25,222 bases of DNA from an uncultured Candidatus Binatia bacterium (GTDB taxonomy: Bacteria; Desulfobacterota; Binatia; DP-6): assembly GCA_964562865.1 (NCBI GenBank), contig CAZLYE010000298.1, forward strand, positions 1 through 25,222. Direction: 5' to 3'. Below the pieces are notes generated by a model. That model ran no database searches and was not told where the DNA came from. It was given only the letters and a program-made list of their open reading frames with translations. Of this stretch, positions 2,686 to 6,320 are shown piece by piece. The position numbers and the translations under genes were made by a program. The number at the start of each line of letters is the position of its first letter. Within the stretch, counting starts at the first letter, position 1.

Positions 2686-3375
2686 CTACCCGCGCATCCC
2701 GACCCTCCGCGTGCGCGACGCCGGCACGCGCCATCGCGCGAGCCAGACGGCCCCCAGCGCGGCCGAGAGCGTCGTCCACACGAGGACCGGAATCATGTGC
2801 CAGGCGAGGACGTGCAGCGAATCGTCGATCGGGCAGGCGACGCGCACGGCGGCCGTGCCGACGACGAACGCCGCGAGGCCCGCGAGCGCTCCCGTGGTGC
2901 GCGCCTCGAGCGGGGCGCCGCGGCGGACGGCCACGAGGATCGCCACCCAGGGCAGCAGACCGAACATGGTGACGCAGAGCGCGCACTGGAGCCCACTCTG
3001 GACGGCCGGACTCCCCGACGACGGCACCGCCGGCTCCGCCAGGAGGAGCACGGCGCTCGCGACACTCAGCACGAGCGCGAGCCAGGCCATCCGGCGCCCG
3101 TCGCGGCCGGGGACGGCGCCGTGGAACGCGGCGCTCGCCGCCGCCGTCGCGGCAGCGAGCAACGTCGCGAGCTCGAGGAGATGGAGCGGCTGGCCGAGCG
3201 TCTTCAGGTCGTGGCGGAGGCTCGCCGCCATCGCGACGCCGATCACGAGCGCGACGAGGAGGAGCCACGAGGCGAGACGTGCCGCCGGCGACCAGAGCGG
3301 GTGCACCGGCGCCAGATCGGCCTTGAGCCGCGCGACGAGCGTATCGTGGACCGGAGGTGTGCGGAGGGCCGTCAC
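2686..3375 (-). CDS. nrsF: NrsF / DUF1109 family membrane anti-sigma factor
   Basis: N-terminal LVARLKADLAPV, about six hydrophobic segments, RRGAP, Cys motifs QCALC and ACPID, and HVLAWH. GTGA overlap with the upstream ECF sigma stop. Confidence 0.88.
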   Translation of the reverse strand: MTALRTPPVHDTLVARLKADLAPVHPLWSPAARLASWLLLVALVIGVAMAASLRHDLKTLGQPLHLLELATLLAAATAAASAAFHGAVPGRDGRRMAWLALVLSVASAVLLLAEPAVPSSGSPAVQSGLQCALCVTMFGLLPWVAILVAVRRGAPLEARTTGALAGLAAFVVGTAAVRVACPIDDSLHVLAWHMIPVLVWTTLSAALGAVWLARWRVPASRTRRVGMRG

Positions 3376-3908
3376 AGGAGCTCCCGCAGCATCTTGTACG
3401 CCCGATGCGCGCGGACCTTGAGCGCGCCGGTCGTCGTGCCGGCGGCCTCGGCCGCCTCCTCGGGCGGCAGCCCGTCGAGCCGCAGCAGCCGGACGGCCTC
3501 ACGCTGGGACGCGGAGAGCGCCCCCAGGGCCTGCTCGAGACGCGTCTTCAGATGACCGTCGGCCTCGGTCGCCACCTCCGGGATCACGTCGACGAGGACC
3601 TCGTGCGCCTGGCGCGTGAGCCCGCGGCGCCGGTGGTCGGCCGCCACGCGTCGAGCGATCGCGAAGAACCACGGCTCGAGCGGGCGCGATGGCTCGTAGG
3701 TGTGCCGCGCGCGATGGAGCGCCATGAAGATCTCCTGATACACGTCCTGGGCGTCCTCCGACCGCCGCACGTGCCGCCGCACGAACCGCATCACGATCGG
3801 ACCCATCTCGTCGAGCAGCTCGCCATACGCATTCGCATCGCCCCGCTGCACCTCCGCCATGAGCCTGGCACGGCGATGGCTCGTCTCGTCACGGTCCCTC
3901 AGCTTCAT
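3372..3908 (-). CDS. ECF sigma factor, copy 1 (ECF16/SigF-like), coupled to nrsF
   Basis: Region 2 LMAEVQRGDANAYGELL…DVYQEIFMALHRARHTYEPSRPLEPWFFAIAR; region 4 LSASQREAVRL…GALKVRAHRAYKML. Start uncertain (3953, 3908 or 3860). Confidence 0.92.
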   Translation of the reverse strand: MKLRDRDETSHRRARLMAEVQRGDANAYGELLDEMGPIVMRFVRRHVRRSEDAQDVYQEIFMALHRARHTYEPSRPLEPWFFAIARRVAADHRRRGLTRQAHEVLVDVIPEVATEADGHLKTRLEQALGALSASQREAVRLLRLDGLPPEEAAEAAGTTTGALKVRAHRAYKMLRELL

Positions 3909-3909
3909 A

Positions 3910-3934
3910 TTCGTCAGGAGCGAGCGGAAGTTAC
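3910..3934 (-). promoter_or_regulatory. Candidate autoregulatory ECF16 box GTAACT-N15-CGAA
   Basis: Minus strand reads GTAACT (3934-3929), TCCGCTCGCTCCTGA, CGAA (3913-3910), T, ATG. Spacer is one base shorter than the 4809 box. Confidence 0.45.
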
Positions 3935-4174
3935 GGCAACCCGGGCGACGCATGTGAACCCGGTCGGCCGCCCGAGTCAATCCACCCTCGAGGGGTTTTG
4001 CGTTTCCGGAAGGTGTCGGCGCGAGGAATCTTCCGCGCTCGGGCGGTGCGCCGATGCCACCCATCCAGAGCCGCGTAACTCCTGCCGTGGCGCCCCCAAT
4101 GATCGAGAAGGGAAACGGCGCATCACGGTCCGCCGTGCACGGCGCCAGACTGCGGGCCGGAGCCCCTGCATCAC

Positions 4175-4771
4175 GTGGTACGCATCGCCACCACAGAGCC
4201 GGCGTCGGAGACCGCGGTCGTGGACCGCCGCGATCCGCCGTCGCGAGCCGAGCGGAGCATGCGCCGCGCGGAGCTGATGCGGTGCGCGCAGCGCGGGGAT
4301 CGGAGCGCCTACGGAGCGCTGCTCGAGGACTCGCTCGCGATCCTGACGACGCTCTTCCGCCGGCGGCTGTCGGATCCACGGGACGTCGAGGACGTCTGTC
4401 AGGAGACGTTGATCGCCGTGCATCGGGCGCGGCACAGCTTCGACGCGTCCCGGCCGTTCGAGCCCTGGCTCGTGGCCATCGCAGGGCACGTCCTCGCCGA
4501 CCACGTGCGGCGGCGCGTCCGCAGGCGCCCCGAGATCCTCGTCGCGATCCCCCCGGAAACGGTGGGAGAAGGCGACGGCGCGGCGGAGTTCGGCTTCGAG
4601 CAGGCCCTCGCGCGCCTGCCCGGAGCGCAGCGCGAGGCCTTCACGCTGATCCAGGTGGAGGGGCTGCCGGTCGAGACGGCCGCCGCCCGCGCCAACACCA
4701 GCGCCGCCGCGCTGAAGGTGCGCGCACATCGCGCGTACAAGGTCCTCCGCGACTCGCTGCGCCGAGTCTGA
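4175..4771 (+). CDS. ECF sigma factor, copy 2 (ECF16/SigF-like), divergent from copy 1
   Basis: LMRCAQRGDRSAYGALL…DVCQETLIAVHRARHSFDASRPFEPWLVAIA…LPGAQREAF…ALKVRAHRAYKVL. About half of aligned residues match copy 1 by manual count. GTG start is uncertain. Confidence 0.9.
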   Translation: MVRIATTEPASETAVVDRRDPPSRAERSMRRAELMRCAQRGDRSAYGALLEDSLAILTTLFRRRLSDPRDVEDVCQETLIAVHRARHSFDASRPFEPWLVAIAGHVLADHVRRRVRRRPEILVAIPPETVGEGDGAAEFGFEQALARLPGAQREAFTLIQVEGLPVETAAARANTSAAALKVRAHRAYKVLRDSLRRV

Positions 4772-4808
4772 GCGTCCGCGCGACGATCCGCCGAGAGATC
4801 GCGCCCCG

Positions 4809-4834
4809 GTAACCGCGGACGGATGGCGATCGAA
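4809..4834 (+). promoter_or_regulatory. ECF16/SigF-type promoter GTAACC-N16-CGAA
   Basis: GTAACC (4809-4814), GCGGACGGATGGCGAT, CGAA (4831-4834). Matches the consensus I recall for Caulobacter SigF. Lies 43 nt upstream of the ATG at 4878, next to two ECF16-type sigmas. Confidence 0.75.
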
Positions 4835-4877
4835 CTGTGGGAAGAGCGCAGTCATCCATCTCACGAAGGGGGGACCC

Positions 4878-6320
4878 ATGAGAAACACGTCGTTCGTTTC
4901 GTTGTCACTCGTTCTTCTCGCCACGTTCGCCGAGGCCGTCCAACCGCCGCCGCCCTGCCACCCGAACGCGACCGCGGGCATGGATGTCGCCGTCGTCAGC
5001 AACCGGGGGGACATCAAGAACCTTCCCGCTCCGTTGAAGGCGCAGCTCGTGCAGCTCGCCTCCCGGCCGCACAGCCAGCTTCCCACCCAGGCGTACGCCG
5101 AGGCGCACTTCGACAACGGCGCGCCTAAGCCGAGCCAGCTCTTCCAGTACTACCTCCTCGACACGAAGGGCTTCGAGCCGAATCCCTTCACGGCCCTGTT
5201 TCCGGGGATCAACGACCAGGCGATGCTGACGGCGACCGGCCCCGACTGCGACCTGCCGACGATCGGTGCGGTCCGCCTCGTCCTCGAGCCCAAGCCGGCT
5301 CTCCCGACGGACCCGAACAACGTGCGCGCGTTCATCGACGTCTTCACCGACGTCGAAGGGCTCTTCGTGATCAACAACGAGAGCGGCTGGTACGAGGGCT
5401 GGATGATCCACGACCTCGAGGTCGCGCCGACCGACAACACGCCCCGTCCCGACGGCCACGCGAAGTTCGGCATGCTCCTCAAGAAGGACGCCGACGCCCT
5501 CAAGGCGATGGGGATGGGCAACAACGTCTTTCCCCACACGTTCACGACCAACGGGAAGCCACCGGAGCCGCCCCAGCCGACGGACCAGTTCCCGACGAAG
5601 CAGACGAACCTCGTGCCGATCCAGCTGAGCATGGGGGCATGGAACACGCTCCAGCAGAGCGACGGGCACGGCTACTGGGAGTTCAACTACACCACGAACT
5701 GGATCCACCCGCTCTACGAGCTCCCCTTCACCGGCGGCCTCCCGGGCACCTTCGAGGCCGGCAAGGTCGGGGCGCTCCAGTCCATCGTCCCGGGTTCGGG
5801 CCCGGCGGGCATCAAGAACGATCCCGTCAGGTACGGCGACAACCCGAACAACAGGGGCGTGATCCAGGCCTCGGGTCCGCGCGACCCCGACAAGTTCGAC
5901 GCCGACGTCGACGATCAGCGCGAGTTTCGCCAGCGTTTCATTCCGAGCGGTCTCGCCAACGAGGTCTTCCTCGACGTCTACGAGCGGCTCGCCTCGTTCG
6001 AGCCGTCCGTCCACGACTTCAACCAGCGCCTCTTCGATGCGTACGCCGCGGAGGTCAAGAGGGTCGACACCAACGGCGACGGCGTCGTCTCGGCGTTCGA
6101 GGGCGACGTGGACACCGCCTCGGACGGCTTCCCCGACAACGAGCGGCTGTTCATTCCCGCGACGAAGTTCAACCGCTTCGCCGTGACGCGCGAGATCAAC
6201 GACGGGCTGCTCGCCCCGCGCTTCGCGCCCAGCCAGAAGGCGTGGGTGCTGTCGGGGATCATCCACCCCGTGAACCCGTCCGTGCCGGCCTCGACGGGCG
6301 AGGACAGCGACGACCGCTGA
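4878..6320 (+). CDS. Secreted protein of unknown function, 480 aa, with one EF-hand-like loop
   Basis: SD GAAGGGGGG; Sec signal peptide MRNTSFVSLSLVLLATFAEA; strong C/G-ending codon bias; DTNGDGVVSAFE at residues 397-408. No family recognised. Confidence 0.92.
   Translation: MRNTSFVSLSLVLLATFAEAVQPPPPCHPNATAGMDVAVVSNRGDIKNLPAPLKAQLVQLASRPHSQLPTQAYAEAHFDNGAPKPSQLFQYYLLDTKGFEPNPFTALFPGINDQAMLTATGPDCDLPTIGAVRLVLEPKPALPTDPNNVRAFIDVFTDVEGLFVINNESGWYEGWMIHDLEVAPTDNTPRPDGHAKFGMLLKKDADALKAMGMGNNVFPHTFTTNGKPPEPPQPTDQFPTKQTNLVPIQLSMGAWNTLQQSDGHGYWEFNYTTNWIHPLYELPFTGGLPGTFEAGKVGALQSIVPGSGPAGIKNDPVRYGDNPNNRGVIQASGPRDPDKFDADVDDQREFRQRFIPSGLANEVFLDVYERLASFEPSVHDFNQRLFDAYAAEVKRVDTNGDGVVSAFEGDVDTASDGFPDNERLFIPATKFNRFAVTREINDGLLAPRFAPSQKAWVLSGIIHPVNPSVPASTGEDSDDR

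What the first reader, a model, noticed from the sequence alone, without database searches (positions are those of the whole stretch)
4809..4880. Exact SigF-type promoter in front of the unknown secreted protein
Seen: GTAACC-N16-CGAA, 37 nt after the stop of sigma copy 2 and 43 nt before a gene with a strong SD. Established (from memory): this is the consensus described for Caulobacter SigF. Inference: the 480-aa protein is the primary direct target, which gives a functional handle on an otherwise unannotatable gene.
Basis: partly seen in the sequence, partly recalled or inferred. Interest (0 to 1): 0.7.

Follow-up and report, generated by a model that had tools for sequence, protein, structure and literature searches.

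The report
Conserved SigF-type promoter before secreted-protein gene
An exact, evolutionarily conserved recognition site for a stress-responsive SigF/ECF16-type sigma factor sits in front of a very widely conserved secreted protein of unknown function. This is an ordinary kind of regulation, but it is so far the only functional clue to an otherwise unannotatable protein family.

Summary
GTAACC-N16-CGAA lies at 4809-4834(+), 37 nt after the stop of the second ECF sigma gene and 43 nt before the ATG of a 480-aa signal-peptide protein ("p480"). It is the only exact match in 25 kb (0.02 expected). The published Caulobacter sigmaF site and the ECF16 consensus are the same motif.

The locus is a genuine ECF16 system. 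An NrsF anti-sigma (six hydrophobic segments, Cys131/134/181) follows sigma copy 1.

The motif is conserved with exact spacing in every relative that has sigma2->p480: six lineages plus a metatranscriptome variant. Spacer and flanks diverge.

Both have a spacer one base shorter: one before sigma1-nrsF (3934-3910, minus strand) and one before sigma2 (4075-4099).

p480 has no Pfam, NCBIfam or PDB-fold relative. It is 65-85% identical across phyla and repeatedly neighbours ECF modules.

Verdict: a very probable functional ECF16-type promoter that makes p480 a direct output. Which sigma reads it is inferred only, possibly as a sigma1->sigma2->p480 cascade. Read-through from sigma2 is not excluded, and no transcription start site (TSS) data exist. 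New member of a known kind, moderate interest.

The parts
4809..4834 (+). P3: ECF16/SigF-type promoter GTAACC-N16-CGAA. The -35 is 4809-4814 and the -10 is 4831-4834; the conserved extension CGAACT runs to 4836. The predicted TSS is about 4840-4843.
   Evidence: exact, unique. (conserved in L081, L082/83, L084/L166, L165 and L167). (a variant with 5 spacer substitutions and none in the boxes).
4865..4873 (+). Shine-Dalgarno-like GAAGGGGGG, 4 nt before the ATG of p480. The surrounding CACGAA(A/G)GG is conserved in relatives.
4878..6320 (+). p480: a 480-aa secreted protein. It has a signal peptide ending AEA|V, invariant Cys27/Cys124, and an EF-hand-like loop D397-E408 (6066-6101). It has no known family or fold.
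4277..4771 (+). ECF sigma copy 2 ('sigma2'), 164 aa from ATG 4277. Alternative starts are ATG 4259 and GTG 4175. No anti-sigma gene is adjacent.
4075..4099 (+). P2: SigF-like box GTAACT-N15-CCAA upstream of sigma2.
   Evidence: Conserved in L081, L084/L166, L082 and L164.
3910..3934 (-). P1: SigF-like box GTAACT-N15-CGAA upstream of sigma1-nrsF, a putative autoregulatory promoter.
3372..3908 (-). ECF sigma copy 1 ('sigma1'). The called ATG at 3908 lies 1 nt after the -10 of P1, so the likely real start is the conserved Met at 3860.
2686..3375 (-). NrsF (DUF1109) anti-sigma. It overlaps the sigma1 stop by 4 nt (GTGA), has six hydrophobic segments, and has Cys at 131, 134 and 181.
   Evidence: PF06532, E 8e-26, full length.. 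PMC3511200.
4775..6307 (.). A 1533-bp segment (P3 plus nearly all of p480) that is absent from a contig 97% identical in nucleotide sequence (L164). The junction lies at AGCG microhomology.
   Evidence: Not verified in reads.

Best explanation
4809-4834 is a functional ECF16 (SigF-type) promoter that makes the secreted protein p480 a direct output of the adjacent sigma/anti-sigma switch.

Shown: the locus encodes an NrsF-type membrane anti-sigma, translationally coupled to sigma1. A paralogous orphan sigma2 is divergently transcribed. Three SigF-like boxes are correctly oriented before sigma1-nrsF (P1), sigma2 (P2) and p480 (P3). P3 is conserved with exact spacing across all sigma2->p480 loci.

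Inferred mechanism: an oxidant, chlorine-species or metal signal acts on the periplasmic cysteines of NrsF and releases sigma1. Sigma1 then fires P1 (autoregulation) and P2 (sigma2), both of the class GTAAC[T/G]-N15-C[C/G]AA. Sigma2, which has no anti-sigma of its own, then fires P3 (GTAACC-N16-CGAA, the canonical ECF16 spacing). Transcription would start about 6-9 nt after CGAA and produce a short-leader p480 mRNA.

Confidence is about 0.8 for 'functional ECF16-type promoter driving p480'.
For: (1) The exact consensus is unique in the window, with 0.02 expected. The three related boxes all fall within 925 bp at the sigma locus, and 0 of 100 shuffles give 3 or more.

(2) The consensus is verified in the literature.

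(3) The ECF16 context is present: sigma2/sigma4-only sigmas, and NrsF PF06532 over its full length with Cys131/181 as in Caulobacter.

(4) Phylogenetic footprint. An unanchored MAFFT alignment of window, L081 and L082/83 keeps GTAACC, the 16-nt distance and CGAACTGT, while the flanks diverge. With L084 added, motif columns are 10/10 invariant against 14/82 elsewhere, Fisher p=3e-7. New instances come from L165, L166 and L167. The X19 variant has 14 substitutions and 1 deletion in the 106-nt intergenic region, including 5 in the spacer and 0 in the boxes.

(5) Background. There are 0 exact and 3 relaxed matches in 640 kb of unrelated loci, against 112 relaxed matches in 342 kb of SigF loci.

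(6) Single-sigma relatives with a divergent p480 (L130, L156, L147) also carry a SigF-like box before p480. The p480-SigF link is therefore clade-wide.

(7) In L165 the box ends 9 nt before the ATG, which only makes sense if transcription starts there.

(8) For the cascade. P2 is N15/CCAA in 4 of 4 lineages and P3 is N16/CGAA in 6 of 6. In single-sigma loci the p480 box is N15/CCAA. N16 boxes occur almost only behind sigma2. Sigma2 forms its own clade with a one-residue linker deletion, but it has the same -35 recognition helix, ALKVRAHRAYK, which matches the shared GTAAC.
Against: There is no transcript 5' end, reporter or binding data. The metatranscriptome material is low-depth assembled contigs without direction.

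No terminator lies between sigma2 and p480: the consensus scan finds none, and the hairpins there fold no better than shuffles. A 616-nt RNA-library contig spans 4554-5170, so read-through from P2 may contribute or even dominate. DNA carry-over is an alternative explanation for that contig.

The evidence for sigma2 specificity comes from essentially one evolutionary contrast, two-sigma clade versus single-sigma clade.

Most p480 homologues elsewhere (80 GTDB loci) have no SigF box or SigF/NrsF neighbour, so the wiring is lineage-specific.

A 97%-identical contig lacks P3 and p480 altogether.
Confidence: 0.8

Rival explanations
1. P3 is a real ECF16 promoter, but it is read by the NrsF-gated sigma1 (or equally by both sigmas). 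Sigma2 is then a redundant or differently tasked paralogue and there is no cascade.
For: Both sigmas have the same region-4.2 recognition helix and all three boxes share GTAAC. In single-sigma relatives the sigma1 orthologue evidently serves the p480 box (L130, L156, L147). In the window P1 itself has CGAA, like P3. The characterised ECF16 sigmas use N16/N17 spacing with a single sigma.
Against: P3 differs from P1/P2 by one spacer base in all six lineages, and from P2 also in the -10 (CGAA vs CCAA). That difference has been maintained through the divergence of the clade. N16 boxes are almost confined to the position behind sigma2.
Confidence: 0.3
2. p480 is expressed mainly as the second gene of a sigma2-p480 operon, by read-through from P2. 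The P3 box is then a minor internal or booster promoter.
For: The gap is only 106 nt. No terminator-like site is found and the hairpins are no better than shuffles. The X19 RNA-library contig covers 4554-5170 continuously.
Against: Perfect conservation of both boxes and of the spacing in an otherwise fast-diverging intergenic region argues for selection on promoter function. In L165 the box abuts the ATG. RNA-library contigs may include DNA and carry no strand information.
Confidence: 0.2
3. The match is a chance occurrence, or a conserved element with another role such as an operator for a different regulator or an RNA element.
For: The motif has only 10 specified bases. No direct functional data exist.
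Against: Only 0.02 matches are expected per window. There are 0 in 640 kb of background. The location behind a SigF-type sigma is conserved in six or more lineages. No Rfam family matches 3700-5000, and there is no significant RNA structure.
Confidence: 0.04

Closest known systems
Caulobacter crescentus sigmaF-NrsF and its promoters (sigF-nrsF, CC3254-57, CC2907-05, CC2748)
   Same: It has the identical core motif GTAACC-N16-CGAA. The sigma is followed by a 6-TM NrsF with two conserved periplasmic cysteines. There is a box in front of the sigma operon itself, and a neighbouring gene for an exported product acts as a target (PMC3511200).
   Different: This locus has two paralogous sigmas at about 50% identity and one NrsF. 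The sigma genes' own boxes have a spacer one base shorter, mostly with CCAA. The target is an unrelated 480-aa orphan protein rather than bufferin, Msr or DUF-type genes. The organism is an uncultured wetland/soil bacterium with 74% GC.
Brucella melitensis BcrS/AbcS (ECF16) and PbcrXQP; Azospira SigF/NrsF; Bradyrhizobium EcfF/OsrA
   Same: These are ECF16 sigma plus DUF1109 anti-sigma systems. The promoter is TGTAAC-N17-CGAA with a mapped TSS. The target operon lies adjacent to the sigma gene and responds to HOCl, ROS or metals (PMC8315932).
   Different: Their targets are methionine-rich peptide / MsrPQ systems. No such genes flank this locus; instead there are a luciferase-like monooxygenase, NamZ and an F420H2-quinone-reductase-like gene. 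No inducer can be inferred here.
ECF sigma cascades (for example Caulobacter SigT->SigU; recalled from memory and not checked here)
   Same: One anti-sigma-controlled ECF sigma would transcribe a second, orphan ECF sigma, which then drives the output genes.
   Different: Here both tiers would belong to the same ECF group and would be discriminated only by one spacer base and one -10 base. This is purely inferred.

Membership tests
ECF16 (SigF-like) sigma/anti-sigma system | The sigma factor has only regions 2 and 4 (ECF architecture). | tested here: met
   Both copies hit PF04542 and PF08281, and TIGR02937 above its cut-off.
ECF16 (SigF-like) sigma/anti-sigma system | The cognate anti-sigma has a DUF1109/NrsF domain and six transmembrane segments, and is encoded directly downstream of the sigma. 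| tested here: met
   For sigma1: PF06532 at E 8e-26 covers profile positions 1-204 of 204, with a 4-nt overlap with the sigma1 stop and six hydrophobic peaks. For sigma2 the feature is NOT met: no NrsF is adjacent in any of the sigma2-clade loci.
ECF16 (SigF-like) sigma/anti-sigma system | NrsF has two conserved cysteines (Caulobacter C131 and C181). | tested here: met
   Cysteines lie at 131, 134 and 181. The paper gives C131 and C181. Equivalence is by position only; no alignment with the Caulobacter protein was made.
ECF16 (SigF-like) sigma/anti-sigma system | The target promoter consensus is (T/C)GTAAC-N17-CGAA, which equals GTAACC-N16-CGAA. | tested here: met
   P3 matches exactly in core and spacing, although the base before GTAAC is G rather than T/C. 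P1 and P2 have GTAAC-N16-C[G/C]AA, which is a variant.
ECF16 (SigF-like) sigma/anti-sigma system | There is an autoregulatory box in front of the sigma-anti-sigma operon. | tested here: inconclusive
   A conserved box (P1) is present at 3934-3910 and in most of the 80 related soil loci. Its activity has not been tested, and its -10 abuts the called ATG.
ECF16 (SigF-like) sigma/anti-sigma system | The sigma falls in group ECF16 according to the ECF classification HMMs or phylogeny. | not tested
   No ECF-group library was available. Only generic NCBIfam sigma models hit, all below their specific cut-offs.
SigF regulon member (direct target gene) | Transcription of the gene depends on the sigma and starts downstream of the box. 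| not testable with these tools
   Only assembled, unstranded, low-depth metatranscriptome contigs were available. No 5' ends could be read.

The most novel reading that the evidence does not exclude
The locus is a two-tier, within-family ECF16 cascade. NrsF-gated sigma1 switches on itself and an orphan paralogue, sigma2, through GTAAC-N16-CCAA-type boxes. Sigma2 carries a one-residue shorter sigma2-sigma4 linker and has shifted to the one-base-longer GTAAC-N17-CGAA box, which it uses to drive p480. p480 itself would be a fold-orphan, Ca-binding-loop-containing secreted protein. It is 65-85% identical across phyla and has been wired repeatedly and independently to different ECF sigma families (SigF/NrsF here; a TGAACC-type ECF with a ZAS-like anti-sigma and an S8 peptidase in Burkholderiales, Xanthomonadales and Caulobacterales). 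That would imply a general envelope-stress effector of unknown chemistry.
Probability: 0.35. Interest if true: 0.6.

Novelty: new member of a known kind. Interest (0 to 1): 0.42.

Why it matters
For this locus, the result turns a bare hypothetical protein into a testable ECF16 output. p480 belongs to a large family: more than 3,300 clusters at 90% identity, spread over Acidobacteriota, Proteobacteria, Chloroflexota, Actinomycetota and Myxococcota. It has no Pfam or NCBIfam model and no PDB fold relative, even though the AF2 model is confident. Its regulatory wiring to oxidant- and metal-sensing SigF/NrsF systems, and to a second ECF type elsewhere, is at present the only clue to its role.

The paired sigmas come with two conserved promoter classes that differ by one spacer base. 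That makes them a compact natural test case for how ECF paralogues stay insulated from each other, which is also of interest for orthogonal ECF parts in synthetic biology.

None of this is surprising in kind. ECF sigmas usually control their neighbours.

Tried and rejected
- **Terminator between sigma2 and P3.** The consensus scan found none. Hairpins in four orthologous gaps fold no better than shuffles (z from -1.5 to +0.3). There is therefore no evidence for transcriptional insulation.
- **Known RNA families.** An Rfam scan of 3700-5000 gave nothing. There are no tRNAs in the window.
- **Motif upstream of p480 in 80 GTDB genomes.** It is absent apart from one weak hit in L069, and SigF/NrsF neighbours are absent too. 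Family-wide SigF control of p480 is rejected; the link is lineage-specific.
- **Conserved neighbours of p480.** There are none, except for a different ECF / anti-sigma / S8 module in about 10 loci.
- **Function of p480.** Pfam, NCBIfam and PDB sequence searches were negative. Distant 35-53% relatives are also negative apart from a sub-threshold EF-hand hit. The first AF2 model was unusable (pLDDT 36). The second was good (pLDDT 74, pTM 0.79), but Foldseek against PDB gave no hit (best E 1.4, TM about 0.1).
- **TSS from metatranscriptomes.** Only unitig-like contigs were available, and their ends reflect strain branching rather than 5' ends. They were not used as TSS evidence.
- **Verification of the p480-less variant (L164) in reads.** Four wetland runs showed no 4774|6308 joint, although X4 unitigs end at 4774 and 6309. 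This is unresolved.
- **The exact N16 motif in L144/L145.** It lies inside a truncated p480 remnant ORF and was judged a chance match.
- **Taxonomy of the organism.** It was not determined. The GTDB scan returned no locus with this architecture.

Full report
**1. The observation**

Positions 4809-4834 on the + strand read GTAACC-GCGGACGGATGGCGAT-CGAA. The stop codon of the upstream ECF sigma gene is 4769-4771, so 37 nt lie in between. The ATG of the 480-aa ORF is at 4878, which is 43 nt after the CGAA, and it is preceded by GAAGGGGGG at 4865-4873.

The pattern occurs once in the 25,222-bp window on both strands, against 0.02 expected from dinucleotide-preserving shuffles. Allowing one mismatch adds nothing.

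Kohler et al. 2012 searched for 'the sigmaF-binding sequence (GTAACC-N16-CGAA)' and showed that the -35 element is needed for sigmaF-dependent reporter activity (PMC3511200). The Brucella BcrS paper quotes the ECF16 consensus as (T/C)GTAAC-N17-CGAA (PMC8315932).

**2. The locus**

The window has about 74% GC. Sequencing-run indexing places it in wetland metagenomes.

The genes around the site, from Pfam:

- A PadR regulator (197-808, -).
- A luciferase-like monooxygenase (1636-2685, -).
- NrsF/DUF1109 (2686-3375, -), at E 8e-26 over the full-length profile.
- ECF sigma copy 1 (3372-3908, -), which overlaps nrsF by 4 nt.
- ECF sigma copy 2 (4277/4259-4771, +), transcribed divergently from copy 1.
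- The 480-aa ORF (4878-6320, +).
- An F420H2-quinone-reductase-like gene and NamZ, both convergent with the 480-aa ORF.

NrsF has six hydrophobic segments and cysteines at 131, 134 and 181. This matches the six TM segments and the functionally important C131/C181 of Caulobacter NrsF. So this is a genuine SigF/NrsF (ECF16-type) module, plus an extra orphan sigma.

The two sigmas are about 50% identical. They are paralogues, not recent copies.

**3.

Relaxing the search to GTAAC-N16/17-C[G/C]AA gives exactly three hits in the window. All lie within 925 bp and each points at a gene:

- P1: GTAACT-N15-CGAA on the minus strand (3934-3910), before sigma1-nrsF.
- P2: GTAACT-N15-CCAA (4075-4099), before sigma2.
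- P3: the reported site.

The expected number is 0.02, and no shuffle out of 100 reaches three.

**4. Comparative evidence for P3**

p480 has more than 3,385 homologous 90%-identity clusters, 75-85% identical among the best 120.

The closest relatives (85% identity) sit in the same architecture. L081 has nrsF<-sigma1 | sigma2->p480, and L082/L083 have sigma2->p480. An unanchored MAFFT alignment of the sigma2-p480 gaps keeps GTAACC, the 16-nt distance and CGAACTGT, while the rest diverges and carries indels.

Further searches added more sigma2-clade loci:

- A metagenome scan with sigma2 added L084.
- A protein search with sigma2, followed by contig look-ups, added L165, L166 (the same lineage as L084) and L167.

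Every sigma2-clade locus that reaches past the sigma2 stop carries GTAACC-N16-CGAA.

With window, L081, L082 and L084 anchored on the motif, the 10 motif columns are all invariant, against 14 of 82 other columns (Fisher p=2.7e-7). That test is partly circular because of the anchoring, so one search is the independent support.

A soil metatranscriptome contig from a strain about 94% identical differs from the window at 14 positions plus one deletion within the 106-nt gap. Five of those differences are in the spacer and none is in either box.

As an empirical background, 640 kb of unrelated p480 loci contain 0 exact and 3 relaxed matches. By contrast, 342 kb of SigF-type loci contain 112 relaxed matches and 9 exact ones. 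Seven of the nine exact matches are P3 orthologues. The other two are one sequence inside a p480 remnant ORF.

In L165 the CGAA ends only 9 nt before the ATG. This is hard to reconcile with anything but a start site at or just before the start codon.

**5. The wider SigF family in these soils**

Most of the 80 sigma loci show GTAAC[C/T]-N15-CGAA about 50 nt before the sigma->nrsF operon, and often a second box on the divergent strand. This is the expected autoregulatory arrangement, but with a spacer one base shorter than the Caulobacter consensus.

Within the sigma1 clade, p480 recurs next to sigma1-nrsF in several arrangements:

- Divergent in L130, L156 and L147.
- Upstream in L088.
- Downstream in L105, L108 and L146.

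In the divergent cases a GTAAC[C/T]-N15-CCAA box precedes p480. The p480-SigF link is therefore older than the sigma2 duplication.

It is not family-wide, however. Among 80 GTDB genomes carrying p480 there is no such box within 300-400 nt upstream (apart from one weak hit in L069) and no SigF/NrsF neighbour.

**6. Which sigma reads P3?**

This is inference only.

Evidence for a shared -35 specificity: both sigmas share the region-4.2 helix ALKVRAHRAYK, in line with the common GTAAC -35.

Evidence that sigma2 has a shifted preference, which would give a cascade NrsF -| sigma1 -> (P1, P2) -> sigma2 -> P3 -> p480:

- P2 is N15/CCAA in all four lineages where it is seen.
- P3 is N16/CGAA in all six lineages.
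- P1 is N15 (CGAA in the window, CCAA in L081 and L084).
- In single-sigma loci the p480 box is N15/CCAA.
- The sigma2 clade is monophyletic and has a one-residue deletion in the sigma2-sigma4 linker.

The contrast rests on essentially one evolutionary event, so I give it about 0.45.

The alternatives are that sigma1 or both sigmas read P3, or that read-through from P2 dominates. These remain open for three reasons: no terminator is detectable; an RNA-library contig spans 4554-5170; and no 5' ends are available.

**7. What p480 is**

p480 has a Sec-type signal peptide (…ATFAEA|VQ), two invariant cysteines (27, 124), and a canonical EF-hand-like loop, D397-x-N-x-D-G-x-x-S-x-x-E408.

It has no Pfam or NCBIfam hit and no PDB sequence hit. 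Against 1.84 billion representatives of 50%-identity clusters, the best hit by far is a single full-length representative (P0121, 78% identity). The other listed hits are mostly shorter sequences, plus a few 35-53%-identical full-length outliers. Those outliers are also Pfam-negative, apart from a sub-threshold EF-hand.

An AF2 model built with those outliers in the alignment is reasonably confident (pLDDT 74, pTM 0.79). It finds no PDB fold relative (best Foldseek E 1.4, TM about 0.1).

Neighbour clustering across the 80 GTDB genome loci finds only one recurrent partner. It is a different ECF sigma with a ZAS-like anti-sigma and an S8 peptidase, seen in about 10 loci, and a TGAACC -35-like box lies upstream of p480 there. 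So p480 looks like a repeatedly ECF-wired envelope protein of unknown chemistry.

**8. Comparison with known systems and verdict**

The promoter, the anti-sigma and the layout match the Caulobacter SigF/NrsF and Brucella BcrS/AbcS paradigms. The differences are the second orphan sigma, the two promoter classes, and the novel target.

Membership of ECF16 is met for all the features that could be tested on sigma1/NrsF and P3. Sigma2 lacks the defining adjacent NrsF. Formal ECF-group HMM placement was not possible.

The finding is real and well supported as regulatory annotation. It is a new member of a known kind, with moderate interest that comes mainly from p480 and the possible within-family cascade.

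Noticed in passing
window 3910-3934 (-) and 4075-4099 (+): There are two further SigF-like boxes: P1 (GTAACT-N15-CGAA) before sigma1-nrsF and P2 (GTAACT-N15-CCAA) before sigma2. Both are conserved in L081, L084 and L164. Their spacer is one base shorter than that of P3 and of the Caulobacter consensus.
   Followed up: yes
window 3906-3913 (-); sigma1 start: The -10 of P1 ends 1 nt before the ATG (3908) that ORF callers use for sigma1, and the same holds in most relatives. In L130 and L156 that codon is ATC. A transcript from P1 could not include this ATG, so the real start is probably the conserved Met at 3860 (LMAxxQRGD). By analogy, sigma2 probably starts at 4277.
   Followed up: partly
window 3974-3980 (TTGACTC on the minus strand), overlapping a terminator-like hairpin at 3984-3996 (+): A TTGACTC box lies about 70-130 nt upstream of sigma1 and is conserved in many SigF loci (window, L081, L088, L105, L130, L149, L096 and others). 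It may be the -35 of a housekeeping promoter giving basal sigma1-nrsF expression, or an operator. No conserved -10 partner was seen.
   Followed up: partly
L164 (JGI 3300036865 contig) versus window 4775-6307: A contig 97% identical to the window over sigma1-sigma2 jumps from 4774 to 6308. It therefore lacks P3 and all but the last 13 nt of p480, with the junction at AGCG microhomology. This is either a natural deletion variant of the promoter-plus-gene cassette or an assembly artefact. X4 unitigs end at 4774 and 6309, but no joint was seen in four runs.
   Followed up: partly
window 4878-6320 (p480); EF-hand-like loop at 6066-6101: p480 is 65-85% identical across Acidobacteriota, Alpha-, Beta- and Gammaproteobacteria, Chloroflexota, Actinomycetota and Myxococcota. 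Yet it has no Pfam or NCBIfam model and no PDB fold match at pTM 0.79. The unusually strong conservation suggests tight functional constraint and/or frequent horizontal transfer.
   Followed up: yes
L015, L016, L019, L026, L028, L033, L036, L038, L042, L046: In Burkholderiales, Rhodanobacteraceae, Casimicrobiaceae and Caulobacterales, p480 neighbours a different ECF sigma with a ZAS-like anti-sigma and an S8 peptidase. A TGAACC(G) -35-like box lies upstream of p480. This looks like a second, independent ECF wiring.
   Followed up: partly
L165 504-541: Here the P3 orthologue ends only 9 nt before the p480 ATG (CGAATTTGAGGGCATG). This implies a leaderless or near-leaderless mRNA in that lineage.
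   Followed up: no
L082 294-1605: In L082 a P2-type box (GTAACG-N15-CCAA) precedes a 408-aa, signal/TM-bearing, Cys- and Thr-rich protein that is inserted between P2 and sigma2. Its C-terminal Cys-rich part recurs in L108 and L086. It may be another SigF-controlled exported protein.
   Followed up: partly
L145 199-531 (-), L144: A truncated remnant of p480 (C-terminal ~115 residues, 51% identity) lies about 2.9 kb from a sigma-nrsF pair. An exact GTAACC-N16-CGAA inside it is probably a chance match.
   Followed up: partly
window 4554-5170; run X19 (soil metatranscriptome): A 616-nt contig from an RNA library of a strain about 94% identical covers the sigma2 3' end, the gap and the p480 5' end continuously. 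p480 and both sigma genes are represented in several soil metatranscriptomes. This indicates expression in situ and possible read-through, though DNA carry-over is not excluded.
   Followed up: partly
window 4530-4550 region of sigma2 (alignment column after ...HVRRRV): All sigma2-clade proteins lack one residue in the linker between regions 2 and 4, relative to all sigma1-type proteins. This coincides with the one-base-longer promoter spacer behind them. It is a correlation only.
   Followed up: no
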